DNA of 53,725 nt. Origin: a virus (taxonomy: Duplodnaviria; Caudoviricetes). The position numbers and the translations under genes were made by a program. Positions 16,052 through 51,353 of this stretch are shown piece after piece; position 1 is the stretch's first letter; every line of letters starts with the position of its first letter. The stretch covers positions 1-53,725 of the IMG/VR virus record IMGVR_UViG_3300027972_000015, one strand, 5' to 3'. The notes beneath the pieces are model-generated. The model searched no databases. It was not told the origin of the DNA and was given only the letters and a program-made list of their open reading frames with translations.

Positions 16052-16312
16052 ATGAACAAGACCACGACAGCGATTCGACGATCAATGGTTCACAACAATA
16101 TGCCGACAACGACTACCGCACAGAAGCTCGTCGCGAGCCTGGCAGCGCGCATCGCGCGTCACTGGCAGCGGGGGTGGCTAGGTAGCTATTACTTCTCTTC
16201 GTCGCGAGACGCGTATCGAGCAGTGGCGCGATCGGTCCGGCTGGCCCGGGCCGGGCTGCTCCACGGAGGTCATGGCCCTTACGGGCGCGGCCCTGCGGCG
16301 TGGTTGTCGTGA
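16052..16312 (+). CDS. Early basic hypothetical protein (86 aa)
   Basis: TAAGGAG RBS; start cassette (MNKTTT). Confidence 0.6.
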   Translation: MNKTTTAIRRSMVHNNMPTTTTAQKLVASLAARIARHWQRGWLGSYYFSSSRDAYRAVARSVRLARAGLLHGGHGPYGRGPAAWLS

Positions 16313-16518
16313 CGACTAGCCAGCCCGCGCCTCGGTTCCAGTAGACCAGCGATCCGGCCGAATGCCAAAGGGTAGGCCCTACGGGCAGAACAAGAATCGC
16401 TGGTCTGCTGGGACCGAGGACAATAGTGTTCCCGAAAGACCCGCCGACCATTCCCCGTCCGCGCCTCGTGCGCGGCAGCCCCACCCGACACCGAGCGGGG
16501 CTGCTGGGACCGAGGACC
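16313..16518 (+). repeat. Structured intergenic element, copy 2
   Basis: CCGCGCCTCG at 16325, full 17-mer at 16459; AGTGTTCCCGAAAGACCCGCCGACC at 16425; 24-bp stem 16330-16353/16396-16419; stem GGCAGCCCC/GGGGCTGCT. Confidence 0.75.
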
Positions 16519-25054: not shown

Positions 25055-25707
25055 AACCATACTACGAGCACGCCGGAATCACCATTTTCCATGGGGACTT
25101 CCGGGAAGTGCTGCCGACGGTGACGGCAGACGTGCTGGTGACTGACCCTCCGTATGGGATTGCGTATAGCAGCGGAAAGACTGGACACCATGGCGGAATT
25201 TCACTTTGCGGAATAGCGGGTGATCAAGACACGTCACTCCGGGATGCGCTTCTGAAATGTTGGAGCGGTCGTCCGGCATTGGTGTTTGGAACGTGGAAGC
25301 GTTCGCGTCCAGAATGTTCCATGGTTTTGATCTGGGAGAAGGGCGACCACGTCGGTATGGGGGATCTGTCACTTCCATGGAAGCCAAACACCGAGGAGAT
25401 CTATGTGATCGGGACAGGGTTTTCTGGCCGCCGTAATAGTTCGGTGTTGAGAATCAATGCTCCGGTGACATGGAATTCCGTGGGGCACGGTAGACACCAT
25501 GCTCACGAAAAGCCATTGGCATTGATGGTTGAGCTGATAGCGAAGTGTCCGCCTGGAACCGTGCTTGACCCATTCATGGGCAGCGGCACCACGCTAGTCG
25601 CCGCGAAGAATTTCGGCCGCAAGGCAATCGGAATTGAGATAGAAGAAAAATATTGTGAGATTGCGGCCAAGCGCCTGAGCCAAGAGATTCTGCCGGGGAT
25701 TGCGTGA
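25051..25707 (+). CDS. DNA methyltransferase, N6A/N4C beta class (218 aa)
   Basis: TDPPY catalytic motif precedes VLDPFMGSGTT SAM motif; HEKP; GIEIEEKYCEIA. Confidence 0.92.
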   Translation: MKPYYEHAGITIFHGDFREVLPTVTADVLVTDPPYGIAYSSGKTGHHGGISLCGIAGDQDTSLRDALLKCWSGRPALVFGTWKRSRPECSMVLIWEKGDHVGMGDLSLPWKPNTEEIYVIGTGFSGRRNSSVLRINAPVTWNSVGHGRHHAHEKPLALMVELIAKCPPGTVLDPFMGSGTTLVAAKNFGRKAIGIEIEEKYCEIAAKRLSQEILPGIA

Positions 25708-37350: not shown

Positions 37351-37571
37351 AGACGGTCCTGCTCCAGTGGTCCGGCAGCGAGGGCCGATGGTATTGGCGC
37401 TGGTACAGGCCAGAACCGCCATCGTACCTGCCAGGCCTTCGGCAGTGCCGGCGAAACCACTGCTCGATCTTGCCGTGCATGCGCGTCGTCACCGTCGAGT
37501 CCGCCAGAGAGGACTACGGGCTGCGGCTCGCGCCCGTCGATTGGACCGGTGTCCATGAGGTGCGGCGGTGA
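37347..37571 (+). CDS. Hypothetical protein (74 aa)
   Basis: GTGA overlaps. Confidence 0.45.
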   Translation: MKTVLLQWSGSEGRWYWRWYRPEPPSYLPGLRQCRRNHCSILPCMRVVTVESAREDYGLRLAPVDWTGVHEVRR

Positions 37572-37978
37572 AGAAACAACCAATCATGTGCGCCAACGCG
37601 GTACTGGCCTCCGACCGTCCCAAGACCCCGAGCGTCTGCCGAGAGTGCCGAGGTGTCGGCGGGCGCCACAAACTCGATTGTGAGACAGGGAAGAGGTCGC
37701 CGCGAGAGCAGGAGCCGGGGCCGGGGCTGGAACTTGCAGAGCGCAACCTGCGCGATGGATACGTGGTGGTCGAATCGCAGGCCAAGGCAATCGCCGACGA
37801 GCTCGACCGGCTCCGCGCCGAGCTGGCGAAGGCCCAGGCCAACTATCAGTTCATGGTCGACCGAGCATGCGACGAGCGCTTGGACGGATACCGCGAGTTG
37901 GCATCGAAACTATGCGCTGCCGAAGAGGACTGCGACCGGCTCCGCGCCCTGGTCCGTGAGCTTGGCGGCGAGCCGTGA
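37568..37978 (+). CDS. Coiled-coil hypothetical protein (136 aa)
   Basis: CREC..HKLDC; YQFMVDRACDERLDGYREL. Confidence 0.6.
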   Translation: MKKQPIMCANAVLASDRPKTPSVCRECRGVGGRHKLDCETGKRSPREQEPGPGLELAERNLRDGYVVVESQAKAIADELDRLRAELAKAQANYQFMVDRACDERLDGYRELASKLCAAEEDCDRLRALVRELGGEP

Positions 37979-38544
37979 CGCTGGTTCAGCTGCTCATGGC
38001 GAAGCTCGAAGCGCTACAGGCCGAGAACGCCGACCTGAGACGTCAGCTCGAAGAACACAAGACCGAGTCGGCCGCGCTCGATGTGGAGTTGTCAGAATCC
38101 GTGACCGACCTGAGACGTCAGCTCGCAGAGGCGCGCAAAGGCCGCTGCTACGACTGCGGTGGAGTCGGCTGCGACGGCTGCGACGGTACCGGCGACGCAG
38201 GAACGCAGACGCTGAAGCTCAAGAATCGCGTCCACGAGATTGAGGTGAAGCTCGAAGAGGCCGAGCGCGAGCGGGGGTATGCCAACGCCAAGCTCGAAGA
38301 GGCGCAACGTGAGTACGCTGCCGAGCATGCGGCTCTGGTCGCGCAGTCGGCCCACGCGTTTAGGGAACACGAGGAGGCCCGGGGCGAGGCGCAGCGGACG
38401 GTGTATGTCGCCGCTGACTCCGCAGGCGACGCCGTGAAGAGCGCTCCGTGGTGGCCCACCGAGGAGCTCGCAACTATGGTCAAGGGAGTCGTGGGAGAGC
38501 ACGTGTACGCCGTCACGCTGACGGCGCGGAGGGTGAAGCCGTGA
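37975..38544 (+). CDS. Coiled-coil protein with CxxCGGxGCxxCxGTG motif (189 aa)
   Basis: GTGA overlap; internal DLRRQL repeat. Confidence 0.6.
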   Translation: MTLVQLLMAKLEALQAENADLRRQLEEHKTESAALDVELSESVTDLRRQLAEARKGRCYDCGGVGCDGCDGTGDAGTQTLKLKNRVHEIEVKLEEAERERGYANAKLEEAQREYAAEHAALVAQSAHAFREHEEARGEAQRTVYVAADSAGDAVKSAPWWPTEELATMVKGVVGEHVYAVTLTARRVKP

Positions 38545-38626
38545 ACGACGACCGTGGCGGGCGGCTAACGAGCCTCTTGCGGTCAAGCGCGCCGCGTGCC
38601 ATCCTGGTGACAGCGCGTATGATAGC

Positions 38627-38936
38627 GACCGTGGACATAGCAAGTAACGGAGTCGGGCATGCCCGGCGGCTTGCTAGTACAGCGCCGATTTCTCGGCGTC
38701 GAGGCGTGGATGCCGGCTCAACCCTCTCTGCCATCCAACGTTCGCACGGTCCCGCGCTGACACAGCTCATCGGTAGCCGCTTCGGTGGCCCGACCAGGCG
38801 ACCCACCCCCTGCCTATGAGCAACTGACGCTAGGACCCTGGCGAAGACGGAGCCAGTACCCAGATCCGGAAGAGGGGAACTTGGCGTCTTCCACCAATCG
38901 CCCACGTTATGGGCAGGGTTGCGTTAGCGCGGTTTT
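38627..38936 (+). ncRNA. Candidate structured non-coding RNA (~310 nt)
   Basis: No credible ORF; TATGAT at 38618; nested stems with G-U pairs; C(TTCG)G tetraloop; last stem followed by TTTT. Confidence 0.5.
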
Positions 38937-39023
38937 GGTTGACTTGGCGGAGACGGCGTGCCAGGGTGTCAAGTAGAGGTTCACGCGCGCGGGCGTATGG
39001 GCCGAGAGCAAAGGTTTCGAATC

Positions 39024-39344
39024 ATGAGCAGCGAGAGCGACAAGGCGGCTCGAATTACAGCGAAGGGGCTTCGGATCATCGACCAGATGCTCGACGTCCT
39101 TGAGAAGGTTCCATACGACGATTGGTCGAAGACGCACGTGAGGGACGTCAGCGATTGCGTCATGGCGGCGGTGAAGGTGCAGGCTGAGGAGCGGGCGCAG
39201 CTCGAATTCGAAGAAGGCGCCAAGCTGTCCCCTGAGGACATCCGCGCGTTGCTCAAGGAATACCTAGCCGCTCTGCCACAGGCAGAATACGCGGCACTTG
39301 TCGCGGAGGCCCGCGCAGCGCAACCATCAGAGGTGCGCGCGTGA
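39024..39344 (+). CDS. Possible terminase small subunit (106 aa, helical)
   Basis: First gene of the late/packaging block; size and helical character only. Confidence 0.4.
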   Translation: MSSESDKAARITAKGLRIIDQMLDVLEKVPYDDWSKTHVRDVSDCVMAAVKVQAEERAQLEFEEGAKLSPEDIRALLKEYLAALPQAEYAALVAEARAAQPSEVRA

Positions 39345-39348
39345 CACG

Positions 39349-40071
39349 ATGCTGGTAGCGCTGCAGTACTGGCGAGGAGACGAGGCCGAGGCGCTGAGCC
39401 TGGCCCGGCTGATTGCCGATATCGAGCCGAAGGAACGAGAGGACGTCGTGCTGGTCCTGGCACGAGCGTTTGACTGTCCGTTGTCACCGGAAGCCGAGGC
39501 CACTCAAAAGCACTGCTCGGCGAAGCTGCGGACGATGCTCCTGCAGTCCCATGTGGAGCGCGTCGGCCACCCGTCGGGCTGCTACGGCGTTTGGGCTGGG
39601 ACGGTGGGCCGGCTCTATCAGCTCTGGTCGTCGGGCATGATCGACTCGCGCCACGACTCGGTGGCCACGTTTGAGGCGGACGGCTGCCCCGTTCGGTCCG
39701 ACTGGCTCGACCGGCTGCAGGCCGCTCACGGTCGCACGCTGACCCAGGGGCTACGCGTGACCGGCGCCGTGATGGACGAGCCCATCCCGCACGTCAACGG
39801 CAATCTTGTCATGCACCTGAGTGTCTGGGGCGACCGCCCGTCCCTGCGCGATTCCATCCATAACGTCGCGTGGGACATCCAGCATGCTCGCGTGCTGATT
39901 CCGCTCACGCGTCCGTGTGGCGTCATCCGCAATGAGTACGAGACGCGCGACTGGACCGAGGGCTGTCTCGCAGGCATTGCTCGCGAGGCCGCGTGGGTGC
40001 ACGGGTGCAAGGACGATTCGATTTTGCGCATCGTCAGAGGATGGATGCGCGGGAAGTGGAGGCGCGATTGA
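39349..40071 (+). CDS. Putative GT-A-like glycosyltransferase (240 aa)
   Basis: FEADGCP (ExD), HVNGNLV, AWD, C-terminal VHGCKD; coupled to the next GT gene. Confidence 0.55.
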   Translation: MLVALQYWRGDEAEALSLARLIADIEPKEREDVVLVLARAFDCPLSPEAEATQKHCSAKLRTMLLQSHVERVGHPSGCYGVWAGTVGRLYQLWSSGMIDSRHDSVATFEADGCPVRSDWLDRLQAAHGRTLTQGLRVTGAVMDEPIPHVNGNLVMHLSVWGDRPSLRDSIHNVAWDIQHARVLIPLTRPCGVIRNEYETRDWTEGCLAGIAREAAWVHGCKDDSILRIVRGWMRGKWRRD

Positions 40072-42152
40072 TCTCCGACCTGTTCCTGCGCACCTACCGC
40101 GGCGACTACCAGTGGCTGCCGTACCTGTTCCGCTCGCTGAATCGACACGCCAGCGGCTGGCGGAAGTTGATCGTGGTCGTGCCCGTCGGGCAGGAGGCGG
40201 ACTTCCCCGTGCTGCCCGAGCTGGACGCGCCCGAATTCTGCGAGGCGGTCGAGTTCGCGACCTGCCCAGTCTACGCGAACGACTACATCGGCCAGCAGAT
40301 CACCAAGCTGCGCGCGTGGGAGCTGAGCGACGCAGACGCCATCGGCTACCTCGACTCAGACATGGTCTTCACGCGTCCATTCGATGCCAGGGCGCTGCCG
40401 ACCTCGGGCATGGGCGCTCACCCCGACGGCGTCGGCGCAAGGCCTTGGAGCGAAGCTGGTGAGGCCAAGGATGCATGGTATGAGTCGACCCGCGACCTGC
40501 TGGGATTTGAGCCGACACACGAGACGATGTGCCGGCATCCGTTCGTCTACCGCCGAGAGACCATCCAGGGATGCTACGAGCACGTAGTCGGCGAGGATGG
40601 CCTGCTCGAATACGGCCGTTGCTTCTCCGAGTTCAACTTGCTTGGGAACTACGCCATACACAATGGCGCCGCGACATACACCCCGGCCGGGCCCGAGCTG
40701 CAGCGCCAGTTCCGCAGCTACGATGGCCTGACCGTGGATACGTTGCAGTGGCTGGCTGTCAACGGCTACGACTCGCACGTGCCAGCCGAGAAGCTCGACG
40801 GGCAAGGGGGCATCTGGACGATCGCGGCCGACTCCACCGTCAGCCGTTGGGACCGCGAGACCGGGCGCTTGGACCACGACCAGAACGCATTGCCTCGCAT
40901 CCTGGACGCGTTCCGTGGCCGGCCGGTGGTCTGGGACGTCGGCGCCCTCATCGGCGACCACTCGCGATCGTACGCAGACGCGGGCCACCGCGTGGTTGCC
41001 ATCGAGCCGCAGCCAATGGCGTTTGAGTGCTTGGCGCGCAACTTCGCCGGCAACGACCGCGTCACATGCCTGCATCTAGCCGCCGGTGCCAGCGAGCAAG
41101 TGACGCTCGCCTCTCCCGACGAACAGAACGCGGGTGCGCGGTTCCTCACGCAGGTCGCCGGCGGGCACGAGACGGTGCTGCTGGACGACCTGACCCGCGT
41201 CTACTCGGCGCCCGACGCGATCAAGCTCGACGTCGAGGGGTGGGAGGTCAAGGCCCTGCGCGGAGCATCGGCCATCCTGGCGAGCGTCCGCCCGGTCATG
41301 GTGATCGAGGTCAACCGCGGGGCGCTGGTCCGCGCTGGCGACTCGCCCGAAGCTTTGCACGAGCTGCTGACCTGGTGCGGGTACCGCATGCGCGACCTGT
41401 ACACCAACGAGCCGTGGCTGGCCGGGGACACGCGCGAGCAGTTCGATATCGTGGCCAAGCCGATTCGCCACGTCGGCGGTAACGGCAGCAAGCCCAAGCT
41501 GCGCATCCTGCACAACCTAGCCCGTTCGGGCGGCACCATCGTGTCCCGCTGTCTGGCGTGTATGGACGGCGTCGCGCTGCTGTCCGAGGTCCACCCGACG
41601 TTCTGGCAAGGCTGGAACGACCCTGTCTTGCAGGCGCGGAAGTGGTACGGCGTCCATGTCCCCGACGATCTGGACTTCGTCGACACGATCGCCGCGCTGG
41701 AGGAAGCGTTCCGGGCCCGCGGGCAGATGCTGGTGCTGCGCTCGTGGGACTTCGTCGACTTCATCCCGAGTTCGAAGAACCGAAAGCCGGCCGGGCGGTC
41801 GCAGCTGACCGAGTCGTTGCGGGAACGGTTTGAGCTGGTGGAGTCGGCGCTCCTGCGCGGGGCAACCGAGGCGCATGCATCGGTAGAGCGATTCCTTGGC
41901 GAACGCGTCGATCAGGCCGCGTTTGTCGAGGGCGCGTGGGCGTTCTCGTCGCAGCCGTGGTCCGCCGTTGATTACGAGGTGCTGTGCCACGACCCACAGG
42001 TATTCATGGCTGAGTTGTGCCGACAGCTTGATCTGCCGCTCGACCCGGCATGGGCCACCAAGTGGCAGTCCTACGTCAACGTCACCGGCGACGTTGCAAA
42101 CCAACTCGAACGGGTCCACATTGGAAGAAAGGAAACACCGCATGCCGAGTGA
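40068..42152 (+). CDS. Fusion: glycosyltransferase (DUF6492-like) + FkbM methyltransferase + sulfotransferase (694 aa)
   Basis: YIGQQITKL, YLDSD, FSEFNLLG; DVGALIGDHS, AIEP, IKLDVEGWE, VIEV; HNLARSGGT, LLSEVHP, YEVLCHDP; GGAGG RBS with TTG start. Confidence 0.82.
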   Translation: MISDLFLRTYRGDYQWLPYLFRSLNRHASGWRKLIVVVPVGQEADFPVLPELDAPEFCEAVEFATCPVYANDYIGQQITKLRAWELSDADAIGYLDSDMVFTRPFDARALPTSGMGAHPDGVGARPWSEAGEAKDAWYESTRDLLGFEPTHETMCRHPFVYRRETIQGCYEHVVGEDGLLEYGRCFSEFNLLGNYAIHNGAATYTPAGPELQRQFRSYDGLTVDTLQWLAVNGYDSHVPAEKLDGQGGIWTIAADSTVSRWDRETGRLDHDQNALPRILDAFRGRPVVWDVGALIGDHSRSYADAGHRVVAIEPQPMAFECLARNFAGNDRVTCLHLAAGASEQVTLASPDEQNAGARFLTQVAGGHETVLLDDLTRVYSAPDAIKLDVEGWEVKALRGASAILASVRPVMVIEVNRGALVRAGDSPEALHELLTWCGYRMRDLYTNEPWLAGDTREQFDIVAKPIRHVGGNGSKPKLRILHNLARSGGTIVSRCLACMDGVALLSEVHPTFWQGWNDPVLQARKWYGVHVPDDLDFVDTIAALEEAFRARGQMLVLRSWDFVDFIPSSKNRKPAGRSQLTESLRERFELVESALLRGATEAHASVERFLGERVDQAAFVEGAWAFSSQPWSAVDYEVLCHDPQVFMAELCRQLDLPLDPAWATKWQSYVNVTGDVANQLERVHIGRKETPHAE

Positions 42153-43742: not shown

Positions 43743-44092
43743 ACATCAAGTCGGTCCGATTCCCGTCGCCCGTCGCCGTCGTGAAGGGAGAACTCCACAC
43801 CGAGTGGATGCCAGGCAAGCGCGGAGTGCGGGAGATTCATGTCTGGAGCGACACCACATTGCTATTCGTGATGGACGGCGTAGGCAACCTGCTCGCGCAG
43901 ATTCTGCCAGGCACGGTGATCGCCGTCGACATGCCGGACACGACTGGGCAAACGTTCGTGGAAGCCAAGGTGACAGCCACGCCATTGCCACCGCCGGCAG
44001 ATAAGGCACCCGATGGACACGCAAGCAGCACGCCTAGCAAGGACCCTCCGCCAGCTCGCCCAATCCCGAAGAGCGGCCGAGTTCAGCGCTGA
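43739..44092 (+). CDS. Hypothetical protein (117 aa)
   Basis: ATGA overlap; Pro-rich tail overlaps TerL start. Confidence 0.5.
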   Translation: MNIKSVRFPSPVAVVKGELHTEWMPGKRGVREIHVWSDTTLLFVMDGVGNLLAQILPGTVIAVDMPDTTGQTFVEAKVTATPLPPPADKAPDGHASSTPSKDPPPARPIPKSGRVQR

Positions 44093-45506
44093 GGCTTGCT
44101 GCTTCCTAGAGCAGCTTGCGGCGTGCCGTAGCCCACGGAAGCGCAAGGTTTTGCGCTGCGGTCGTCGTGCGGGCAAGACGCGGCTGATTGCGATCGCGCT
44201 GCTTGAAGCCGCCTTGCAGCTCCCGGCGGTGCCGGTTCTTTACGTCACGTTGACCAGGGGGAACGCGAAGGAAATCCTCTGGGACGAGTTGCTGTCAGTC
44301 CACGACGAATACAAGCTAGGATTCAGGGTCCGCGAGGGCGCGCTTGAATTGATCAGCCCGCTGGGCATCAAGATCCAGCTTCGCGGCGCCCACACGAAGC
44401 GGGAGATCGCCAAGTACCGCGGGAAGAAGTTCAAGCTGGTCATCCTTGACGAGGCGCAGTCGTTCCCCAACAGCGTGCTTGAACCGCTGGTCCGGGATGT
44501 CATCATGCCGACCCTGCTCGACTACGAGGGCACGCTATGGCTTGCTGGCACGCGCCCACCACTGCGGAAGGGATACTTCTGGGAGTGCTTCGACGGCAAG
44601 CTAAAGGACAGATACGAGCTGCACTCGTGGACGGTCAAGGAGAACACGAAGCTTCCAGCCAGGGCGGCCGGCAAATCGATAGAGGACATCCTCGCCGAGT
44701 TTCGCAAGGACAACGGCTGGACGGAGTCGGACAAGACATACCGCCGCGAGATTCTCGATCAGGATGTCGAAGATCGCGAAGCGCTGCTCTATGAGTACCT
44801 CGACACACGCAACGGGTACACGCAGCTCCCCCAGTCGCCAGCGTGGCACTACGCTTTGGCGTGGGACCTTGGCATAGGCGGCGACGAGGAGAAGCCGGAG
44901 CAAGAGGGCGGCACCATGTACCTCTGCATTTTGGGCTGGCCCGAGCACGATCGGCGCGTGTTCCTGGTCGACGAATGGAGCGGCAACAAGAGCGGAGACG
45001 CTAAGAGCGACATCACGGACACGGCGGCTGAGGCCCACAGGCTGATCGAGAAGTATCGGCCAGAGCGCTACGTGCTCGACTACGGGGGCCTAGGCAAGCT
45101 CATCGCCGCAGAGATTCGGCAGCGGCATCATATCCCGGTCAAGGCGGCCGAGAAGAGCCAGAAGGGCGCCTTCATCGCGCTGTTCAACACGGCCATGCGC
45201 AAGGGCGAGTTTTTCGCGCGAGCCGACTCGGTGTTTGCGCAGGAGTGCGCGTTGGTGAAAAAGGACTTCGAAGCGCTGGCCAACGGCGGGAAGCTCCAGG
45301 AGCTCCCTCCGCGCAAGGGCGGGTTCCACGGCAACGCAACCGACGGCGTGCTCTACGGCTGGCGCGAGTGCCGGGCGTGGATGGAGCAGCTGCCGCCCGA
45401 ACGCCCGGAGGGCTACCGCGAGCCCACCGAGACGATGAAGCGCGCCCTGGCCGAGCAGAAGCGAGCGAATGGCAAAGACCCGCTTGACCTGCTCATGGGG
45501 TTCTGA
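44013..45506 (+). CDS. terL: Terminase large subunit (497 aa)
   Basis: Walker A CGRRAGKT, Walker B LVILDEAQ, LAGT, YRREIL, nuclease AWDLG, DYGGLG, HGNATDGVLY. Confidence 0.92.
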   Translation: MDTQAARLARTLRQLAQSRRAAEFSAEACCFLEQLAACRSPRKRKVLRCGRRAGKTRLIAIALLEAALQLPAVPVLYVTLTRGNAKEILWDELLSVHDEYKLGFRVREGALELISPLGIKIQLRGAHTKREIAKYRGKKFKLVILDEAQSFPNSVLEPLVRDVIMPTLLDYEGTLWLAGTRPPLRKGYFWECFDGKLKDRYELHSWTVKENTKLPARAAGKSIEDILAEFRKDNGWTESDKTYRREILDQDVEDREALLYEYLDTRNGYTQLPQSPAWHYALAWDLGIGGDEEKPEQEGGTMYLCILGWPEHDRRVFLVDEWSGNKSGDAKSDITDTAAEAHRLIEKYRPERYVLDYGGLGKLIAAEIRQRHHIPVKAAEKSQKGAFIALFNTAMRKGEFFARADSVFAQECALVKKDFEALANGGKLQELPPRKGGFHGNATDGVLYGWRECRAWMEQLPPERPEGYREPTETMKRALAEQKRANGKDPLDLLMGF

Positions 45507-45512
45507 CGGACA

Positions 45513-45573
45513 TTTCTGTCACGACAGAAACACCAGGCTTGACGGTGCTTTCGGTTCGTGCCATGTATAGAGT
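45513..45573 (+). promoter_or_regulatory. Palindrome plus late promoter candidate
   Basis: TTTCTGTC-AC-GACAGAAA (45513-30); TTGACG(45539)-17 nt-(TGC)CATGTA-6 nt-ATG. Confidence 0.5.
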
Positions 45574-45864
45574 ATGCGGACCGGTCAACTGCGGAGCCTC
45601 CTCAAGGAGCTGCGGGCCGGTGGCGTGTCCGAGTACTCCTCGACGAAGCGCGGCGAGACGGTAACGCTCAAGCTTGCCGGCCCGTTCGTGCCGTCGGTTT
45701 CAGCCTCGGCGAAGAGGGCTCCCGCAAAGGCCGCCGCGCCCTTCCCGCCGATTTCCAGCGAGCTGCGCAAGCAGCTGGAGAACTTGGGCGTAGACGCTGA
45801 TCAGGCCCACGAGGTCCTGCGCGATGTCGGCATTGCCGCTGGGGTAGCCGATGGCCTCGACTAG
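45574..45864 (+). CDS. Hypothetical protein (96 aa)
   Basis: LRSLLKELRAGGVSEY helix-strand; between TerL and portal. Confidence 0.6.
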   Translation: MRTGQLRSLLKELRAGGVSEYSSTKRGETVTLKLAGPFVPSVSASAKRAPAKAAAPFPPISSELRKQLENLGVDADQAHEVLRDVGIAAGVADGLD

Positions 45865-46084
45865 GGCAATCGCTGTCGTCGGCAAGCTGGGCGCCGTCTG
45901 CGACGAACAGGCCTACGTCAAGCGCTACGATCGCGCGTCCATCGTGGTCGAGGTCGAGATTCCATGGGACTCGGCTTTGCAATGCGGGCTGGTCTACCGC
46001 GACGATTCTCACCACGGCGCGAAGACGGACATGCTTCCGGGTCAGCGCTGCACTCTGACGCTTGAGGTGCCGAATGGCGGCTAA
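45851..46084 (+). CDS. Hypothetical protein (77 aa)
   Basis: Overlaps both neighbours. Confidence 0.5.
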   Translation: MASTRAIAVVGKLGAVCDEQAYVKRYDRASIVVEVEIPWDSALQCGLVYRDDSHHGAKTDMLPGQRCTLTLEVPNGG

Positions 46085-48074
46085 GCGCAGCCTCGTCAAG
46101 CGCGGGGTCGCTCGGCTCCCCCACCGCATCTCGACGATGGGCAGCGCGGCCGACGTCGCCGACAACAATGGGCGCTGGTGGGAGAACGCTGGTGACGCCG
46201 GGGTGGCCCAGGCTCGCGCGCTGCTGACCACGCTGCACAGCCTGCACGGGCAGCGGCGGCTCTACGACGACCTCTACACTGGCCTGTACGAAGCGCAGCC
46301 GCCATTCTGGCTGATTCAGATGCGGGCCGGGGCGCCGATCGTCCAGGCCGCGTCGATCATGAATTCGTACACGAAGGCGCGAGCGAACATCATTCGTCGC
46401 TGCGTGGACACCGCCGCCGCGATGCTGGCCAAGAATCCAGCCGAGATTCGCTGCCAGACTGACGGTGCCTCGTGGAAGCTGCAGCGGAGGGCCCGGCAGC
46501 AGACCAAGTACATCAACGGCCTGCTCCGCGAGTGCGGGTTTCACGAGGCGCAACAGCGCTGCTTCATCGACGCGTGCCTTACCCGCGCCGGCGGGCTTGT
46601 GAAGATGTGGATTGACCGCAAAAACAAGCGGATTCGCTGCGATCGTGTCCACCCCGGCGCCTTTCTCTGGAACGACTACGAGTCGCCGCCGCTGCGCAAC
46701 GCGGGCCTGCGCTACCTGGAATCGAAGAGCGTCTTGATGGACCGCCACCCAGAACTGGCCGCGCAGATTCGCACAGCTCCGCACGGGACCAACCCGCAAC
46801 TCACGCACATCTACCGCCGCATGTTCGGCAACGAGCTGATGGCCGACCAGGTCGAGGTCAGCGAGATGTGGCACCTCACCGAGGACGCCGAGAAGCCGGG
46901 CCGGCACATCATGGCTCTGCCCAACGTCACGCTTGAGGATGAGCCCTGGGAGTTCGATTTCTTCCCGATTCCGCGGCTTTTCTGGGCCGAGGCCGACCGC
47001 GGCTCGTGCAACTCGCCGGTGGCCGAGCAGCTCGTCGGCTACCACACGCAGATCGGCGAGATGATGCTCGCCATCTCGAAGAGCCAGCGCCTCGCGTGCG
47101 TCCCTCGCGTCTACATCGAGAAGGGCAGCGATATCGTCGAGGACGAGATCACCAACGCGATCGGTGGGGTCGTCCACTACACCGGCACGCCTCCGACGAT
47201 CGCCACCTCGCAGGCGATGCCGCCCGAGTTCTACCAGTACTTGAACCAGCTCGTCGCGTGGGCGATGGCCGACACCGGGCTGAACGAATTCCAGGCCCAG
47301 GGCACGCTGCCGATGGGCATGCAGGACGCTTCCGGGCGAGCTCTCCGCGAAATGAACGACACGGGCAGCACGCGCCAGGTGCTCAAGGGTCAGCGCATTG
47401 AGCGGCACACGATCAGCGCCGGTGAAATGGGCTTCCGCATGTCGGCGAAGCTGGCCAAGGAAAGCCCGGACTTCGCGATCAACGCCCTTGGCGCCCGCAG
47501 CTTTGAGCGCATCAAGTGGTCTGAGGTCGAGGGCGACATCCGCGATATCCGCATGGTGACAACGCCGACGAGCATGCTCGGCTCGACGACGAGCGGCCGC
47601 ATTCAAAACGTCGTGGATATCATCAAGGGCGGATTGCTCCCGCCCGACGAGGTCAACGGCGGGCTCGGCCTCAAGCTGCTTGCCTTCCCAGATTTGGAGA
47701 AGGTCGTCACGATGGAGACGGCCATTCGCGAGCTGATCGAGATGATGGTCGACGGGGCGCTCTACGACGGCGACTACTTCGCGCCTGAGCCGTATCTTGG
47801 TCCGCAGGGGTTGACGCTGCTCAAGACGATGGCGTGTCGGACCTACTTCCACGCGTTGCAAATGGACGGCGTGCCAGCGAAGAACCTGGACATGCTTCGT
47901 CGCCTCATGAGCGAAGCGGACTTTCTCACGCAGAACTTCGCGGCCAAACAGGCGCCGATTCAGCAGCCGCAGGCCAATGTGCCAGCGCCCGCGCCGGCCC
48001 CGCTGCAGCAGTCCCCGCTGGCTCCGCCTCCGATGCCCGAGATGCCCATGCCGGGCGGGGGGCAGCCGCAATGA
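46074..48074 (+). CDS. Portal protein (666 aa)
   Basis: Position after TerL; NIIRRCVDT, FIDACL..GGLVK, EMWHL, TGLNEFQAQG, SGRALRE; Pro/Gln tail. Confidence 0.85.
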   Translation: MAAKRSLVKRGVARLPHRISTMGSAADVADNNGRWWENAGDAGVAQARALLTTLHSLHGQRRLYDDLYTGLYEAQPPFWLIQMRAGAPIVQAASIMNSYTKARANIIRRCVDTAAAMLAKNPAEIRCQTDGASWKLQRRARQQTKYINGLLRECGFHEAQQRCFIDACLTRAGGLVKMWIDRKNKRIRCDRVHPGAFLWNDYESPPLRNAGLRYLESKSVLMDRHPELAAQIRTAPHGTNPQLTHIYRRMFGNELMADQVEVSEMWHLTEDAEKPGRHIMALPNVTLEDEPWEFDFFPIPRLFWAEADRGSCNSPVAEQLVGYHTQIGEMMLAISKSQRLACVPRVYIEKGSDIVEDEITNAIGGVVHYTGTPPTIATSQAMPPEFYQYLNQLVAWAMADTGLNEFQAQGTLPMGMQDASGRALREMNDTGSTRQVLKGQRIERHTISAGEMGFRMSAKLAKESPDFAINALGARSFERIKWSEVEGDIRDIRMVTTPTSMLGSTTSGRIQNVVDIIKGGLLPPDEVNGGLGLKLLAFPDLEKVVTMETAIRELIEMMVDGALYDGDYFAPEPYLGPQGLTLLKTMACRTYFHALQMDGVPAKNLDMLRRLMSEADFLTQNFAAKQAPIQQPQANVPAPAPAPLQQSPLAPPPMPEMPMPGGGQPQ

Positions 48075-49580: not shown

Positions 49581-50837
49581 ATGTCTCTCGACGTCACAGC
49601 AGCACAAGCAATCCTCCGGGAAACCTACCCGAACGGGATTGTGGACATCGACTACAAAAAGGCCAAGACGCTTGCTCTGCTCCGCAAGGAGAAGGGCACG
49701 CTGGTTGAGGCGCCGTTCGGCTACGGCTTCAAGATCCCGATCAAGTACAGCAACCCGCAGGCCGGCTCGGCGACCTACGCCACTGGCTACGGCCAGGCGG
49801 CGAGCGAGTACAGCCGCTACACCAACTGGTTCCTCACCCCTGGTGAGCTGTTCCAGTTCGCGCGGGTCAGCGGTTCGCTGATTCGTCGTTCTCAGGGCGT
49901 CGGCTCGTTCGTCAAGGCGATCGTGTCCGAGATCGAGAACGCCAAGACCGCGCTGACCCGGTACTGTGAAATGTACCTGGACGGCGACGGTTTCGGCGCT
50001 CTCGGCCAGGTCGGCAGCATCACCGGAACGAGCATCACGCTCAAGTACCCATGGCAAGCGCGCTTCTTTGAGATCGGCACGACCATCTGTGGCGCCGACA
50101 GCAACTCGACGAGCGTGCTCAAGGCTCCGACGGTGGGCAAGTACACCAAGATCACCGCGCGCAACACGGCGACGGGCGTTCTCACCACGGCCGGCGACAT
50201 GTCGTCAGGCGGCACTCCAATCGCCGCCAATGACTACCTGTTCCGCTACGGCGACCGCGAAGACAGCGCCAGCGCCTCTCGGCTCCTGCCCTGCGGGTTC
50301 ACGGGATTCATCCCTGACACCGACGCGGCACGTTCCAGCAGCTTCTTCAACGTCAACCAGACGTTGTCGGAGCGGCTCGGCGGGCTCCGCCGGTCGGCAA
50401 CCACGAGCGGCAATATGGAAGAGGCGCTGCTCGACATGAGCGCCGACATCGACGCCGCTGGCGGCACCACCACTCACTGCGTGCTCGGCGCAAACACCCA
50501 CGCGAAGCTCGGGAAGTCCCTGCTCAACAAGACATACCTCGACATCGAGGACATGGACGGCGTGAAGCTTGGATTCAAGGGCCTCGTGATCCAGGGCGCC
50601 AGCGGCGACTTCCTCGTCTACAGCGACAGCGCTTTTGCCGAGGGCCGTGCGCGTCTCTTCGACATCGAGGACGTCGGTATTCAGCACACCGGCGACGACC
50701 TGTGCTTCATCGATCAGACGGACGGCCTGATGGTCCGCGAGATCGCCGGCACCGACGACTGGGGCGCTCGTGTCGTCTCCAGCTGGCAGTTCCACGTGGA
50801 CGCTCCCGGCCACGCTGCCGTCATCACCAATCTGTAA
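49581..50837 (+). CDS. Major capsid protein (418 aa)
   Basis: Follows scaffold; strongly biased codons; LYxDGxGALGQV-type segment; ends PGHAAVITNL. Confidence 0.85.
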   Translation: MSLDVTAAQAILRETYPNGIVDIDYKKAKTLALLRKEKGTLVEAPFGYGFKIPIKYSNPQAGSATYATGYGQAASEYSRYTNWFLTPGELFQFARVSGSLIRRSQGVGSFVKAIVSEIENAKTALTRYCEMYLDGDGFGALGQVGSITGTSITLKYPWQARFFEIGTTICGADSNSTSVLKAPTVGKYTKITARNTATGVLTTAGDMSSGGTPIAANDYLFRYGDREDSASASRLLPCGFTGFIPDTDAARSSSFFNVNQTLSERLGGLRRSATTSGNMEEALLDMSADIDAAGGTTTHCVLGANTHAKLGKSLLNKTYLDIEDMDGVKLGFKGLVIQGASGDFLVYSDSAFAEGRARLFDIEDVGIQHTGDDLCFIDQTDGLMVREIAGTDDWGARVVSSWQFHVDAPGHAAVITNL

Positions 50838-50867: not shown

Positions 50868-51353
50868 ATGAGCGTACTTTTCAACAGGGTTTGGCGTCAC
50901 CTCAAGGGCCAGAACCGAAGCGGCATGGTTCGCGTTTCAGGGTCGGCGATCATCGGCTCGTCTGGGGCGGTTTCGTCCTACGACTCGCCGGGGTTCAAGA
51001 TCCAGAAGAACGACGGGCAGACGGGGCGCTACCGTATCCAGCTCCTGGCCGAAGATGGCGTCACCTACGCTGTCCCGGCCATGGTGTATTCTGGAACCAC
51101 GGTGGTCGCTCCGTTCGGTTTCCAGGACTTCAACGTGTCCATCGTCAGCGCCGTTGCCGCCAACGCACTGACCACGAACAGCGCGGTCCACTGGGCAATC
51201 AGGAACTACACCCCGCAAGATGGCTACTTCGAGGTGCAGTTCTTCAAGGACATCACGTCGTCCACCAACGAAACACACGTGGACTGCGACATCGAGAGCG
51301 GTGGGAAGTTCTTCATCGCGTTCTCAGTCAAGACGTCCTCGGTGACGCCATGA
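50868..51353 (+). CDS. Putative capsid decoration protein (161 aa)
   Basis: Directly after MCP; beta-rich; TGRYRIQL. Confidence 0.55.
   Translation: MSVLFNRVWRHLKGQNRSGMVRVSGSAIIGSSGAVSSYDSPGFKIQKNDGQTGRYRIQLLAEDGVTYAVPAMVYSGTTVVAPFGFQDFNVSIVSAVAANALTTNSAVHWAIRNYTPQDGYFEVQFFKDITSSTNETHVDCDIESGGKFFIAFSVKTSSVTP

What the first reader, a model, noticed from the sequence alone, without database searches (positions are those of the whole stretch)
38578..38972. Candidate large structured RNA ahead of the packaging operon
Seen: promoter-like TTGCGG-17-CATCCT and TATGAT(38618). Domain 1 is closed by GACCGTG/CACGGTC (38627/38745) with arms TAGCAAGT/GCTTGCTA, CGCCGA/TCGGCG and TGGATG/CATCCA. Domain 2 (181 nt) is closed by CCGCGCTGAC/GTTAGCGCGG then TTTT, with a C(TTCG)G hairpin, CCCTGCCTATGA/TTATGGGCAGGG (12 bp) and GACGCTAGG/CTTGGCGTC. 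Alternative pairings exist (GCTCAT/ATGAGC, GAAGACG/CGTCTTC). Frequent G-U pairs imply RNA. Inference: unnamed ncRNA or late-operon attenuator; packaging-RNA or 6S-like roles are speculative.
Basis: partly seen in the sequence, partly recalled or inferred. Interest (0 to 1): 0.7.

Follow-up and report, generated by a model that had tools for sequence, protein, structure and literature searches.

The report
Phage late-operon control region, untranslated leader
The stretch is a real non-coding gap at the head of a phage's packaging and structural genes, bracketed by two copies of a conserved promoter-like signal, but the elaborate RNA fold proposed for it is no better than chance and is not kept in related phages.

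Summary
The window is a 53.7-kb phage record. The finding lies in a 479-nt gap (38545-39023) between the replication module and the late module that holds the terminase and portal genes.

The gap shows no coding signal.

The fold is not exceptional:
- The stated 395 nt give z -0.78.
- The two hand-bounded domains rank 99th of 1730 and 112th of 1729 among the phage's own windows.
- Rfam has no match.

Relatives conserve three things:
- A promoter-like motif, TTG-N16-GTG[CG]CA-NNN-T, at 38577 and 38939. It gives 8 hits, all on the gene strand, against 0.34 expected.
- A 17-19-bp site at 38896-38914.
- The 5' UTR of the first late gene.

The ~330 nt between the two promoter copies is not conserved, even in L006, which has the same layout.

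Three other relatives carry an unrelated, covariation-supported RNA-like element in this slot. The window does not match it.

Verdict: a late-operon control region with an untranslated leader. A large structured RNA is unproven.

The parts
37975..38544 (+). Last gene of the upstream module (189 aa, coiled-coil with a CxxCxGxG-like Cys cluster).
   Evidence: ORF. Only weak coiled-coil Pfam matches. L004 is 91-95% identical in DNA up to window 38554 and then diverges.
38545..39023 (.). 479-nt non-coding gap at the boundary between the replication module and the late module.
   Evidence: No codon-position GC periodicity. No Pfam, PHROG or protein homologues for its ORFs. Module map.
38577..38605 (+). 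P1, first copy of the promoter-like motif (TTGCGG, 17 nt, CATCCT, with GTGCCA abutting the -10-like hexamer).
   Evidence: The same motif heads the non-coding stretch in L002 (965) and L006 (385).
38618..38623 (+). TATGAT, a -10-like hexamer 12 nt after CATCCT. It is either an alternative -10 (with GTGCCA as -35, 16-nt spacer) or a promoter-proximal -10-like element.
   Evidence: It is the only sigma-70-type site called in 37500-40000. L006 has GTGCCA, 17 nt, TATGAA at the matching place.
38612..38936 (+). Putative untranslated leader transcribed from P1. Both start and end are inferred, not shown.
   Evidence: Position relative to P1 and to the U4 run. Fold z -1.68, with 4 of 100 shuffles as good. 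No RNA data were available.
38625..38752 (+). Predicted 'domain 1', a three-hairpin junction closed by GACCGTG/CACGGTC.
   Evidence: Fold z -1.97, with 9 of 200 shuffles as good. Ranks 99th of 1730 genome windows. Not conserved in relatives.
38752..38936 (+). Predicted 'domain 2', closed by CCGCGCTGAC/GUUAGCGCGG and followed by UUUU. At best a weak, non-canonical terminator.
   Evidence: Fold z -2.85, with 2 of 200 shuffles as good. Ranks 112th of 1729. Not called by the terminator scan.
38896..38914 (.). Conserved 17-19-bp partly palindromic site, AATCGCCCACGTTATGGGC.
   Evidence: The only exact copy in the window. Present in either orientation next to P2 or the terminase genes in L011, L002, L013 (two inverted copies), L032 and L070. 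L006 carries a doubly changed variant.
38939..38967 (+). P2, second copy of the promoter-like motif (TTGACT, 17 nt, CAGGGT).
   Evidence: Aligned with TTGAC-type promoters in L002, L011, L010 and L006, where the -10 is TATATT.
38978..38991 (+). Conserved block of the 5' UTR (GGTTCACGCGCGCG) of the first late gene.
   Evidence: Alignment A7 of 6 sequences.
39024..39344 (+). First late gene (106 aa, all-helical, no known family).
   Evidence: Seven relatives beside the window's own protein among the 8 listed, at 55-71% identity. No Pfam or PHROG family above cut-off. A weak homologue lies upstream of TerL in L006.
45539..45567 (+). P3, third copy of the motif with one mismatch, 33 nt after the TerL stop codon.
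   Evidence: Exact copies sit 57 nt after TerL in L006 and at the matching place in L007.

Best explanation
The gap is the control region at the head of the phage's late (packaging and structural) operon. It is not a conserved large structured RNA gene.

It carries these parts:
- Two tandem copies, 362 bp apart, of a late promoter-like signal specific to this phage group: a TTGNNN -35-like box, a 17-nt spacer ending in GTGCCA, and a CANNNT -10-like hexamer. A third copy follows the terminase gene.
- A conserved 17-19-bp partly palindromic site 24-26 bp upstream of the second promoter. It is most likely a protein-binding site on double-stranded DNA.
- A conserved 5' UTR for the first late gene.

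The ~330 nt between the two promoter copies is untranslated. It is probably transcribed from P1 as a leader. That leader either stops inefficiently at the GC helix plus U4 just before P2 or runs on into the late genes.

Shown: the non-coding status, the conservation of the motif and the site, and the lack of conservation of the spacer. Inferred: that the motifs are promoters, the transcript ends, and any attenuation.
For: - Module map. Replication genes lie at 19-36 kb. TerL, portal and the structural genes run from 39 kb to the end and continue at 1-16 kb, all on the + strand.
- Promoter-like motif. I scanned the window plus 11 loci, which is 12 of the 61 sequences then held. The motif TTG-N16-GTG[CG]CA-NNN-T occurs 8 times in these 119,402 bases, 8 of 8 on the + strand and 0 on the - strand. 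Resampled sequences gave 0.34 on average, and 0 of 200 reached 8.
- Motif positions match between genomes: at the start of the non-coding stretch (window, L002, L006), just before the first late gene (window, L002, L011), and just after TerL (L006, L007; window with one mismatch).
- In L006 the P2 -10 position holds TATATT. This fits reading the CANNNT position as a -10.
- Shared words. Among the 7 spacers compared, the only 8-mers the window shares with at least two others are the 17-mer site, the CGCGCGCG of the UTR and two isolated words (alignment A7).
- Site orientation. The 17-mer appears in both orientations relative to the genes: forward in the window, L011 and L006; reversed in L002, L070 and L032; both in L013. 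This points to recognition of double-stranded DNA.
- Module boundary. L004 and the window are 91-95% identical up to 38554 and unrelated after it, so P1, the spacer and the late genes behave as one exchangeable module.
- Fold statistics are unremarkable.
- The L006 spacer lies between the same signals but is unalignable with the window's and folds with z +0.52.
Against: - No transcript data exist, so P1 and P2 are promoters by sequence only.
- Their -10-like hexamers (CATCCT, CAGGGT) are far from consensus. The generic scan flagged only GTGCCA, 16 nt, TATGAT.
- A phage this densely packed with genes keeps 330 untranslated nucleotides, which suggests the spacer has some use.
- With helix-defined boundaries the sub-domains reach z -2.0 and -2.9, and the + strand folds better than the - strand.
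- Three relatives carry a covariation-supported RNA-like element in the same slot behind the same kind of promoter. That element itself has an unremarkable z of -0.50, so a weak z-score does not exclude a real RNA.
- The distance from the 17-mer to P2 varies (about 3, 7, 12, 26 and 54 nt), which does not fit a classical phased activator site.
Confidence: 0.55

Rival explanations
1. The P1-P2 spacer encodes a lineage-specific structured RNA of about 320 nt. It could be a cis-acting leader, such as a put-like antiterminator or an attenuator for the late operon, or a free small RNA. It would be functionally analogous to the unrelated RNA-like element that three related phages carry in the same slot.
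For: - The spacer is non-coding.
- It starts right after a conserved promoter-like motif.
- Sub-domain z-scores are -1.97 and -2.85, and the + strand is favoured over the - strand.
- A mutually exclusive pairing exists: 38607-38617 with 38753-38763, against the closing helix followed by U4 (pair I7; compare the folds).
- L012, L013 and L032 hold a ~300-nt element in the same slot. It is 81% identical between L012 and L013. 20 of its 79 predicted pairs change on both sides, matched by 0 of 500 shuffles, and slid controls give 0-5.
Against: - No homologue of the spacer was found, so there is no covariation evidence at all.
- The spacer is not conserved in L006, L011 or L070, which share the flanking signals.
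- The whole-region z is -0.78, and the domains rank about 100th of about 1730 genome windows even with favourable boundaries.
- There is no canonical terminator and no Rfam match.
- The spacer is not a member of the relatives' element by profile or covariance model.
Confidence: 0.25
2. The gap is mainly a DNA-level packaging recognition region (pac or cos). The conserved 17-19-bp site would be bound by the small terminase or a partner protein, and the promoters would simply be adjacent.
For: - The site lies next to the head of the packaging genes in 7 related phage sequences. In L013 two inverted copies lie directly upstream of the gene before TerL.
- It occurs exactly once in the window.
- L006 carries a symmetric double change, GCCCA/TGGGC to GCTCA/TGAGC. 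This fits a dimer-bound palindrome as well as it fits a hairpin.
Against: - The orientation relative to the packaging genes flips between relatives. That is awkward for a directional pac site.
- TerL lies 5 kb downstream in the window.
- The first late gene has no detectable small-terminase family.
- No genome ends are known for this record, which is linear without end repeats.
Confidence: 0.12
3. The spacer is functionless filler at a recombination junction between modules, for example the decayed remnant of a lost gene, kept only because it separates two promoters.
For: - There is a sharp mosaic breakpoint at 38545-38554 against L004, which carries a DUF968 (HNH-like) gene in this slot instead.
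- Spacer length and sequence vary freely among relatives: about 330, 250, 140 and 120 nt.
- Fold stability is typical of the genome.
Against: - No protein remnant was detectable in any of the six frames against the relatives. All 17 stop-free pieces gave E above 0.06.
- The spacer's GC content (0.64) equals that of the rest of the genome rather than drifting.
- P1 is conserved upstream of the spacer in three lineages, which implies the stretch is transcribed.
Confidence: 0.08

Closest known systems
Lambda late control region: PR' promoter with its Q-binding and pause elements, the 194-nt '6S' leader and terminator tR' (recalled from general knowledge; not read here)
   Same: A promoter at the early/late boundary is followed by a few hundred untranslated nucleotides ahead of a very long same-strand late operon. 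A conserved block lies inside the promoter spacer. A -10-like hexamer (TATGAT) lies shortly downstream of P1.
   Different: No Q-family protein was found among the four ORFs tested directly upstream. There is no canonical terminator. A second full promoter copy follows the leader. None of these roles has been tested.
HK022 put RNA and other cis-acting processive antitermination RNAs (PMC9378689 and PMC8191782: search listing and start of abstract only)
   Same: A promoter-proximal structured RNA acting on the polymerase that made it would fit the position at the head of a roughly 30-kb operon. It fits the relatives' conserved element especially well.
   Different: put is recalled as about 70 nt with two stem-loops. 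Here the candidate is about 320 nt and unconserved, and Rfam gave no match.
Conserved RNA-like element of related phages (L012:2608-2945, L013:8189-8530, L032 minus strand 4264-3945), found here
   Same: Same slot: behind a TTGNNN-17-CANNNT promoter-like motif, ending at the 17-mer site, and ahead of the first late gene or the terminase genes. Similar length of about 300 nt.
   Different: No sequence or structure match. The nhmmer profile gives no hit in the gap at E up to 10. The covariance model of its core gives a best score of 5.9 bits. The 17-mer has the opposite orientation.
phi29 packaging RNA (pRNA) and bacterial 6S RNA (SsrS)
   Different: No Rfam match for either at gathering or relaxed thresholds. 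The predicted fold is multi-branched, not a rod with a central bubble. This phage has a T4-type large terminase, whereas pRNA is known (recalled) only from phi29-like phages.

Membership tests
Any Rfam 15 family (including 6S RNA, phi29 pRNA, riboswitches, GOLLD/ROOL/HEARO-type large RNAs) | Covariance-model score at or above the family's gathering threshold. | tested here: not met
   0 matches over the whole window. In relaxed mode on 38450-39100 the only match is sR55 at 15 bits, E 0.8, against a gathering score of 35.
6S RNA-like | A long, largely double-stranded rod with a central open-promoter-like bubble. | tested here: not met
   The predicted folds are two multi-branched domains.
Intrinsic-terminator attenuator | A compact GC-rich hairpin (loop 3-8 nt) followed at once by a run of at least 5 U. 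| tested here: not met
   No + strand site was called in 37500-40000. Only U4 follows a helix whose strands lie about 160 nt apart.
Intrinsic-terminator attenuator | An alternative (antiterminator) pairing that competes with the terminator stem. | tested here: inconclusive
   38607-38617 can pair with 38753-38763 at 91% complementarity over 11 nt. The same scan reports 12 inverted pairs of similar quality in 601 nt, so this may be chance.
Conserved structured RNA (general criterion) | Compensatory base changes across homologues. | not testable with these tools
   No homologue of the spacer was found in the viral, metagenome, genome or GenBank phage collections. The pairwise alignment with L006 is not meaningful.
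Conserved structured RNA (general criterion) | Folding energy clearly below shuffled and genomic background. | tested here: not met
   z -0.78 for the stated region. The domains rank 99th of 1730 and 112th of 1729 among the genome's own windows.
RNA-like element of L012/L013/L032 | Match to the sequence profile or to the covariance model of the conserved core. | tested here: not met
   nhmmer gives no hit in 38500-39000 at E up to 10. cmsearch with filters off gives a best score of 5.9 bits.
Sigma-70-type promoter | A -35-like TTGNNN and a -10-like hexamer with A at position 2 and T at position 6, spaced 16-18 nt apart. | tested here: met
   P1 is TTGCGG-17-CATCCT and P2 is TTGACT-17-CAGGGT. 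L006 has TTGACC-17-TATATT at the P2 position. Promoter activity itself was not tested.
Lambda-type Q/qut late control | A Q-family antiterminator gene upstream of the late promoter. | tested here: not met
   No antiterminator Pfam family in ORFs 34852, 36817, 37568 or 37975. Small or novel proteins cannot be excluded.

The most novel reading that the evidence does not exclude
This phage group, possibly associated with Myxococcota, places a long promoter-proximal leader RNA at the head of its late and packaging operon. Different lineages would carry non-homologous versions of it. Three relatives hold a covariation-supported ~300-nt element, and the window would hold a so-far unique two-domain ~320-nt version. 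That version would act on the transcribing polymerase, as an antitermination or attenuation device, or in packaging.
Probability: 0.2. Interest if true: 0.6.

Novelty: new member of a known kind. Interest (0 to 1): 0.33.

Why it matters
As it stands, the finding is an ordinary phage regulatory region: the boundary between the replication and late modules, with tandem promoters and an untranslated leader.

Its value is descriptive in three ways:
- It defines a late-promoter motif specific to this phage group, with an unusual conserved GTGCCA block in the promoter spacer.
- It defines a conserved 17-19-bp site that could be tested as the operator or packaging signal of an uncultivated group of sediment phages.
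- The by-product is more interesting than the finding. Three related phages carry an uncatalogued ~300-nt RNA-like element with compensatory changes directly ahead of their terminase genes. If the window's spacer proves to be a functional analogue, the slot would be a place where phages exchange different leader RNAs.

Tried and rejected
- **RNA evidence.** The look-up of sequencing runs listed no RNA holder. The two DNA runs laid were contigs only. One may be the source of the record. The other holds an L004-like phage that leaves the window at 38540, and it has no contig across the gap.
- **Homologue hunting for the spacer.**
  - blastn against GenBank phages: none.
  - Flanking-protein and motif scans of viral contigs, 8 of 8 used.
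  - Metagenome contigs and genome contigs.
  - All of these gave relatives of the flanks but none of the spacer.
- **The 17-mer scan of viral contigs** returned 48 loci. Sixteen of the 48 fall in one conserved coding sequence of unrelated phages; I recall its motif as that of a cytosine methyltransferase. Most of the rest look like chance. No tRNA overlaps the site, so I dropped a tRNA-derived att-site idea.
- **The 19-mer scan of genome contigs** returned 11 loci, of which only L070 is a relative.
- **Sigma-54 reading of GTGCCA (TGGCAC on the other strand).** By eye, the -12 GC is missing or misplaced in most copies. Rejected.
- **First late gene as small terminase.** There is no Pfam or PHROG family. 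The profile comparison with the gene before TerL in L013 gave probability 0.3%. The AlphaFold model is all-helical with pTM 0.33, too uncertain for a fold search, so none was run.
- **First pattern** had the wrong spacing and is irrelevant.
- **Published catalogue not checked.** The catalogue of IMG/VR candidate structured RNAs (PMC10690425; passages read) lists motifs of 29-151 nt that need at least 3 unique regions. Its supplementary tables were closed. I could not check whether the relatives' element or any part of the window's gap is listed there.

Full report
**Context.** The window is a complete-length virus record: 53,725 bases, linear, with estimated completeness 95%. Nearly all long ORFs are on the + strand.
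- Pfam places a primase-helicase, a PD-(D/E)XK nuclease, an AAA_24 ATPase and a DNA methylase at 19-36 kb.
- A T4-type large terminase lies at 44013-45506, a weak (below cut-off) SU10-portal match at 46062-48074, and lectin-like structural proteins at 1-16 kb.
- The finding lies in the 479-nt gap 38545-39023, between the last small gene of the replication side (37975-38544) and a 106-aa gene (39024-39344) that opens the late block. It therefore sits at the boundary between the replication and late modules.

**The observation.**
- The gap looks non-coding. Third-position GC periodicity is strong in both flanking genes and vanishes between about 38560 and 38980.
- The three longest ORFs in it (63, 123 and 130 aa) match no Pfam or PHROG family.
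- The 123-aa and 130-aa ORFs have no homologue in the 5.8-billion-protein collection.
- The 17 stop-free six-frame pieces of 20 aa or more gave nothing better than E 0.06 against all fetched loci.
- No tRNA and no Rfam family is present.

**Is the fold more than chance? No.**
- The stated 395 nt fold at -169 kcal/mol against -163.8 +/- 6.7 for shuffles. That is z -0.78, and 20 of 100 shuffles fold as well. The reverse strand gives z +0.42.
- With boundaries placed on the proposed closing helices, z improves to -1.68 (38612-38937), -1.97 (domain 1) and -2.85 (domain 2). These boundaries were chosen after seeing the helices.
- I also folded the phage's own sequence in 128-nt and 186-nt windows at a 31-nt step and regressed energy on GC content. 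The two hand-bounded domains rank 99th of 1730 and 112th of 1729.
- The terminator scan calls nothing on the + strand. The four U's follow a helix whose strands lie about 160 nt apart.
- One caution: the covariation-supported element of the relatives (see "A different element in the same slot" below) has z of only -0.50. Thermodynamics alone cannot settle the matter.

**What is conserved.** Relatives were reached through flanking proteins and motifs.

| Locus | How it relates to the window |
|---|---|
| L002 (same contig as L005, L012, L060) | 257-aa late protein 67% identical; first late gene 38% |
| L004 | upstream gene 73% in protein, 91-95% in DNA |
| L006, L007 | TerL 66% |
| L009, L010, L011 | first late gene 47-70% |
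| L013, L032 | found through the 17-mer |
| L070 (contig of a MAG titled Myxococcales) | TerL 55% |

Three things recur among these relatives.

1. *A promoter-like motif, TTG-N16-GTG[CG]CA-NNN-T.*
   - I gave the scan 12 of the 61 sequences then held (the window plus 11 related loci, 119,402 bases). It found 8 copies, all 8 on the gene strand.
   - Resampled sequence gave 0.34 on average, and 0 of 200 resamplings reached 8.
   - The motif was defined on the window's two copies (38577 and 38939; 2 found against 0.16 expected). The six copies in relatives are the independent part.
   - They sit at matching places: at the start of the non-coding stretch (L002:965, L006:385), just before the first late gene (L002:1317, L011:647), and 57 nt after TerL (L006:3799, with the same sequence at L007:1787). 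The last position corresponds to a one-mismatch copy at window 45539, 33 nt after TerL.
   - L013 has the motif with one extra spacer base, and L010 has ATGGCA. These two were read by eye.
   - In L006 the P2 -10 position reads TATATT.
2. *A 17-19-bp site, AATCGCCCACGT(T/A)(A/T)TGG(GC), at window 38896-38914.*
   - It is forward in L011, and forward in L006 as a doubly changed variant (GCCCA..TGGGC becomes GCTCA..TGAGC).
   - It is reversed in L002, L032 and L070.
   - Both orientations occur in L013, 30 nt apart, directly before the gene that precedes TerL.
3. *A 5' UTR block, GGYTCACSCGCGCG* (alignment A7).

**What is not conserved.** The spacer between P1 and the 17-mer is not shared.
- A word search over the 7 gaps found that the window shares 8-mers with at least two others only at the 17-mer, at the CGCGCGCG of the UTR, and at two isolated words.
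- L006 has the same order of parts as the window: P1, spacer, 17-mer, P2, first late gene, then TerL. Its 248-nt spacer is not detected by blastn, aligns only nominally, and folds with z +0.52.
- L011 and L070 have only about 140 and 120 nt there.
- L004 shares the upstream gene almost to the base, diverges at 38555, and carries a DUF968 (HNH-like) gene instead. P1, the spacer and the late genes therefore behave as one exchangeable module.

**A different element in the same slot.**
- L012 and L013 share a 225-nt non-coding block at 81% identity. It is by far their best-conserved DNA, and it has indels that are not multiples of three.
- A profile built from that pair finds L032 at E 6e-14.
- On the three sequences, RNAalifold predicts 79 pairs. 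Of these, 20 change on both sides while staying paired, and 88.9% of cells are paired. None of 500 shuffles reaches these values, and slid controls give 0-5 such pairs.
- One caveat applies: the structure was derived from the same three sequences.
- Rfam has no match, and GenBank phages have no similar DNA.
- The element starts right after a P1-type motif and ends at the reversed 17-mer.
- The window's gap is not a member. nhmmer finds nothing in it at E up to 10. A covariance model of the conserved core finds nothing with default filters and at best 5.9 bits with filters off.

**Interpretation.** The best-supported reading is a late-operon control region: tandem promoter-like signals, a protein-binding DNA site, a conserved UTR, and an untranslated, probably transcribed but unconstrained leader.
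- The conserved GTGCCA block inside the promoter spacer, and the -10-like TATGAT/TATGAA 12-13 nt after the P1 hexamer in the window and L006, recall the Q-binding and pause elements of lambda PR' (recalled, not read here). No Q-family gene was found in the four upstream ORFs tested.
- The site occurs in both orientations while keeping its sequence, which argues for recognition on double-stranded DNA.
- Its variable distance from P2 argues against a phased activator and leaves both operator and packaging-signal roles open.
- The structured-RNA reading stays alive at about one in four. A phage keeps 330 untranslated nucleotides behind a conserved promoter, the sub-domains fold somewhat better than shuffles, and sister lineages put a real-looking RNA in the same place.

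**Literature.**
- HK022 put RNA (PMC9378689) and a bipartite antitermination system of conjugative elements (PMC8191782) were seen only as search listings with the starts of their abstracts.
- For the IMG/VR catalogue of candidate structured RNAs (PMC10690425) I read passages. It reports motifs of 29-151 nt and mentions 14 motifs upstream of a putative large terminase. Its supplements were closed, so overlap with the elements described here is unknown.
- Statements about lambda PR'/Q/6S RNA, phi29 pRNA and directional pac sites are recalled.

**Verdict.** This is a real, ordinary regulatory gap with a well-defined conserved promoter motif and binding site. The large structured RNA is unproven and, on present evidence, unlikely.

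Noticed in passing
L012:2608-2945, L013:8189-8530, L032:3945-4264 (minus strand): An uncatalogued ~300-nt non-coding element shared by three related phage contigs, directly ahead of the first late gene or the terminase genes. It is 81% identical between L012 and L013. 20 of 79 predicted pairs show compensatory changes, and there is no Rfam match.
   Followed up: partly
window 16330-16419 (folded as 16230-16440): A near-perfect hairpin of about 24 bp, the strongest GC-corrected fold in the window. Its z is -5.19 and 0 of 200 shuffles fold as well. It lies where the + strand structural genes meet a short block of - strand ORFs, so it may be a bidirectional terminator or a recombination site.
   Followed up: partly
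window 45539-45567; L006:3799; L007:1787: A third copy of the promoter-like motif just after the TerL stop codon, ahead of two small ORFs (45574-45864 and 45851-46084) and the portal gene. Its position is conserved in two relatives.
   Followed up: partly
window 38545-38554 versus L004:4466-4478: A sharp mosaic junction. An L004-like phage, also present in run X2, is 91-95% identical through the upstream gene. It then carries a DUF968 (HNH-like) gene instead of the gap and late module.
   Followed up: yes
window 39298-42152: A 257-aa protein of no known family and a 719-aa protein (DUF6492 plus an FkbM-type methyltransferase domain) sit between the first late gene and the terminase. This is unusual cargo inside a packaging block. 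Homologues occur in L002 and L070.
   Followed up: no
L070 (genome contigs record whose title names a Myxococcales MAG): This contig holds a related late module (TerL 55%, 257-aa protein 37%, first late gene 35%) with a reversed 17-mer and a TTGACT promoter. It is a tentative host hint only, because a 16.5-kb contig in a MAG may be mis-binned.
   Followed up: partly
window about 49818-50035, 25359-25575 and 50934-51119: Other windows with unusually low GC-corrected folding energy (z -3.7, -2.8 and -3.2). All lie in regions that look coding.
   Followed up: no
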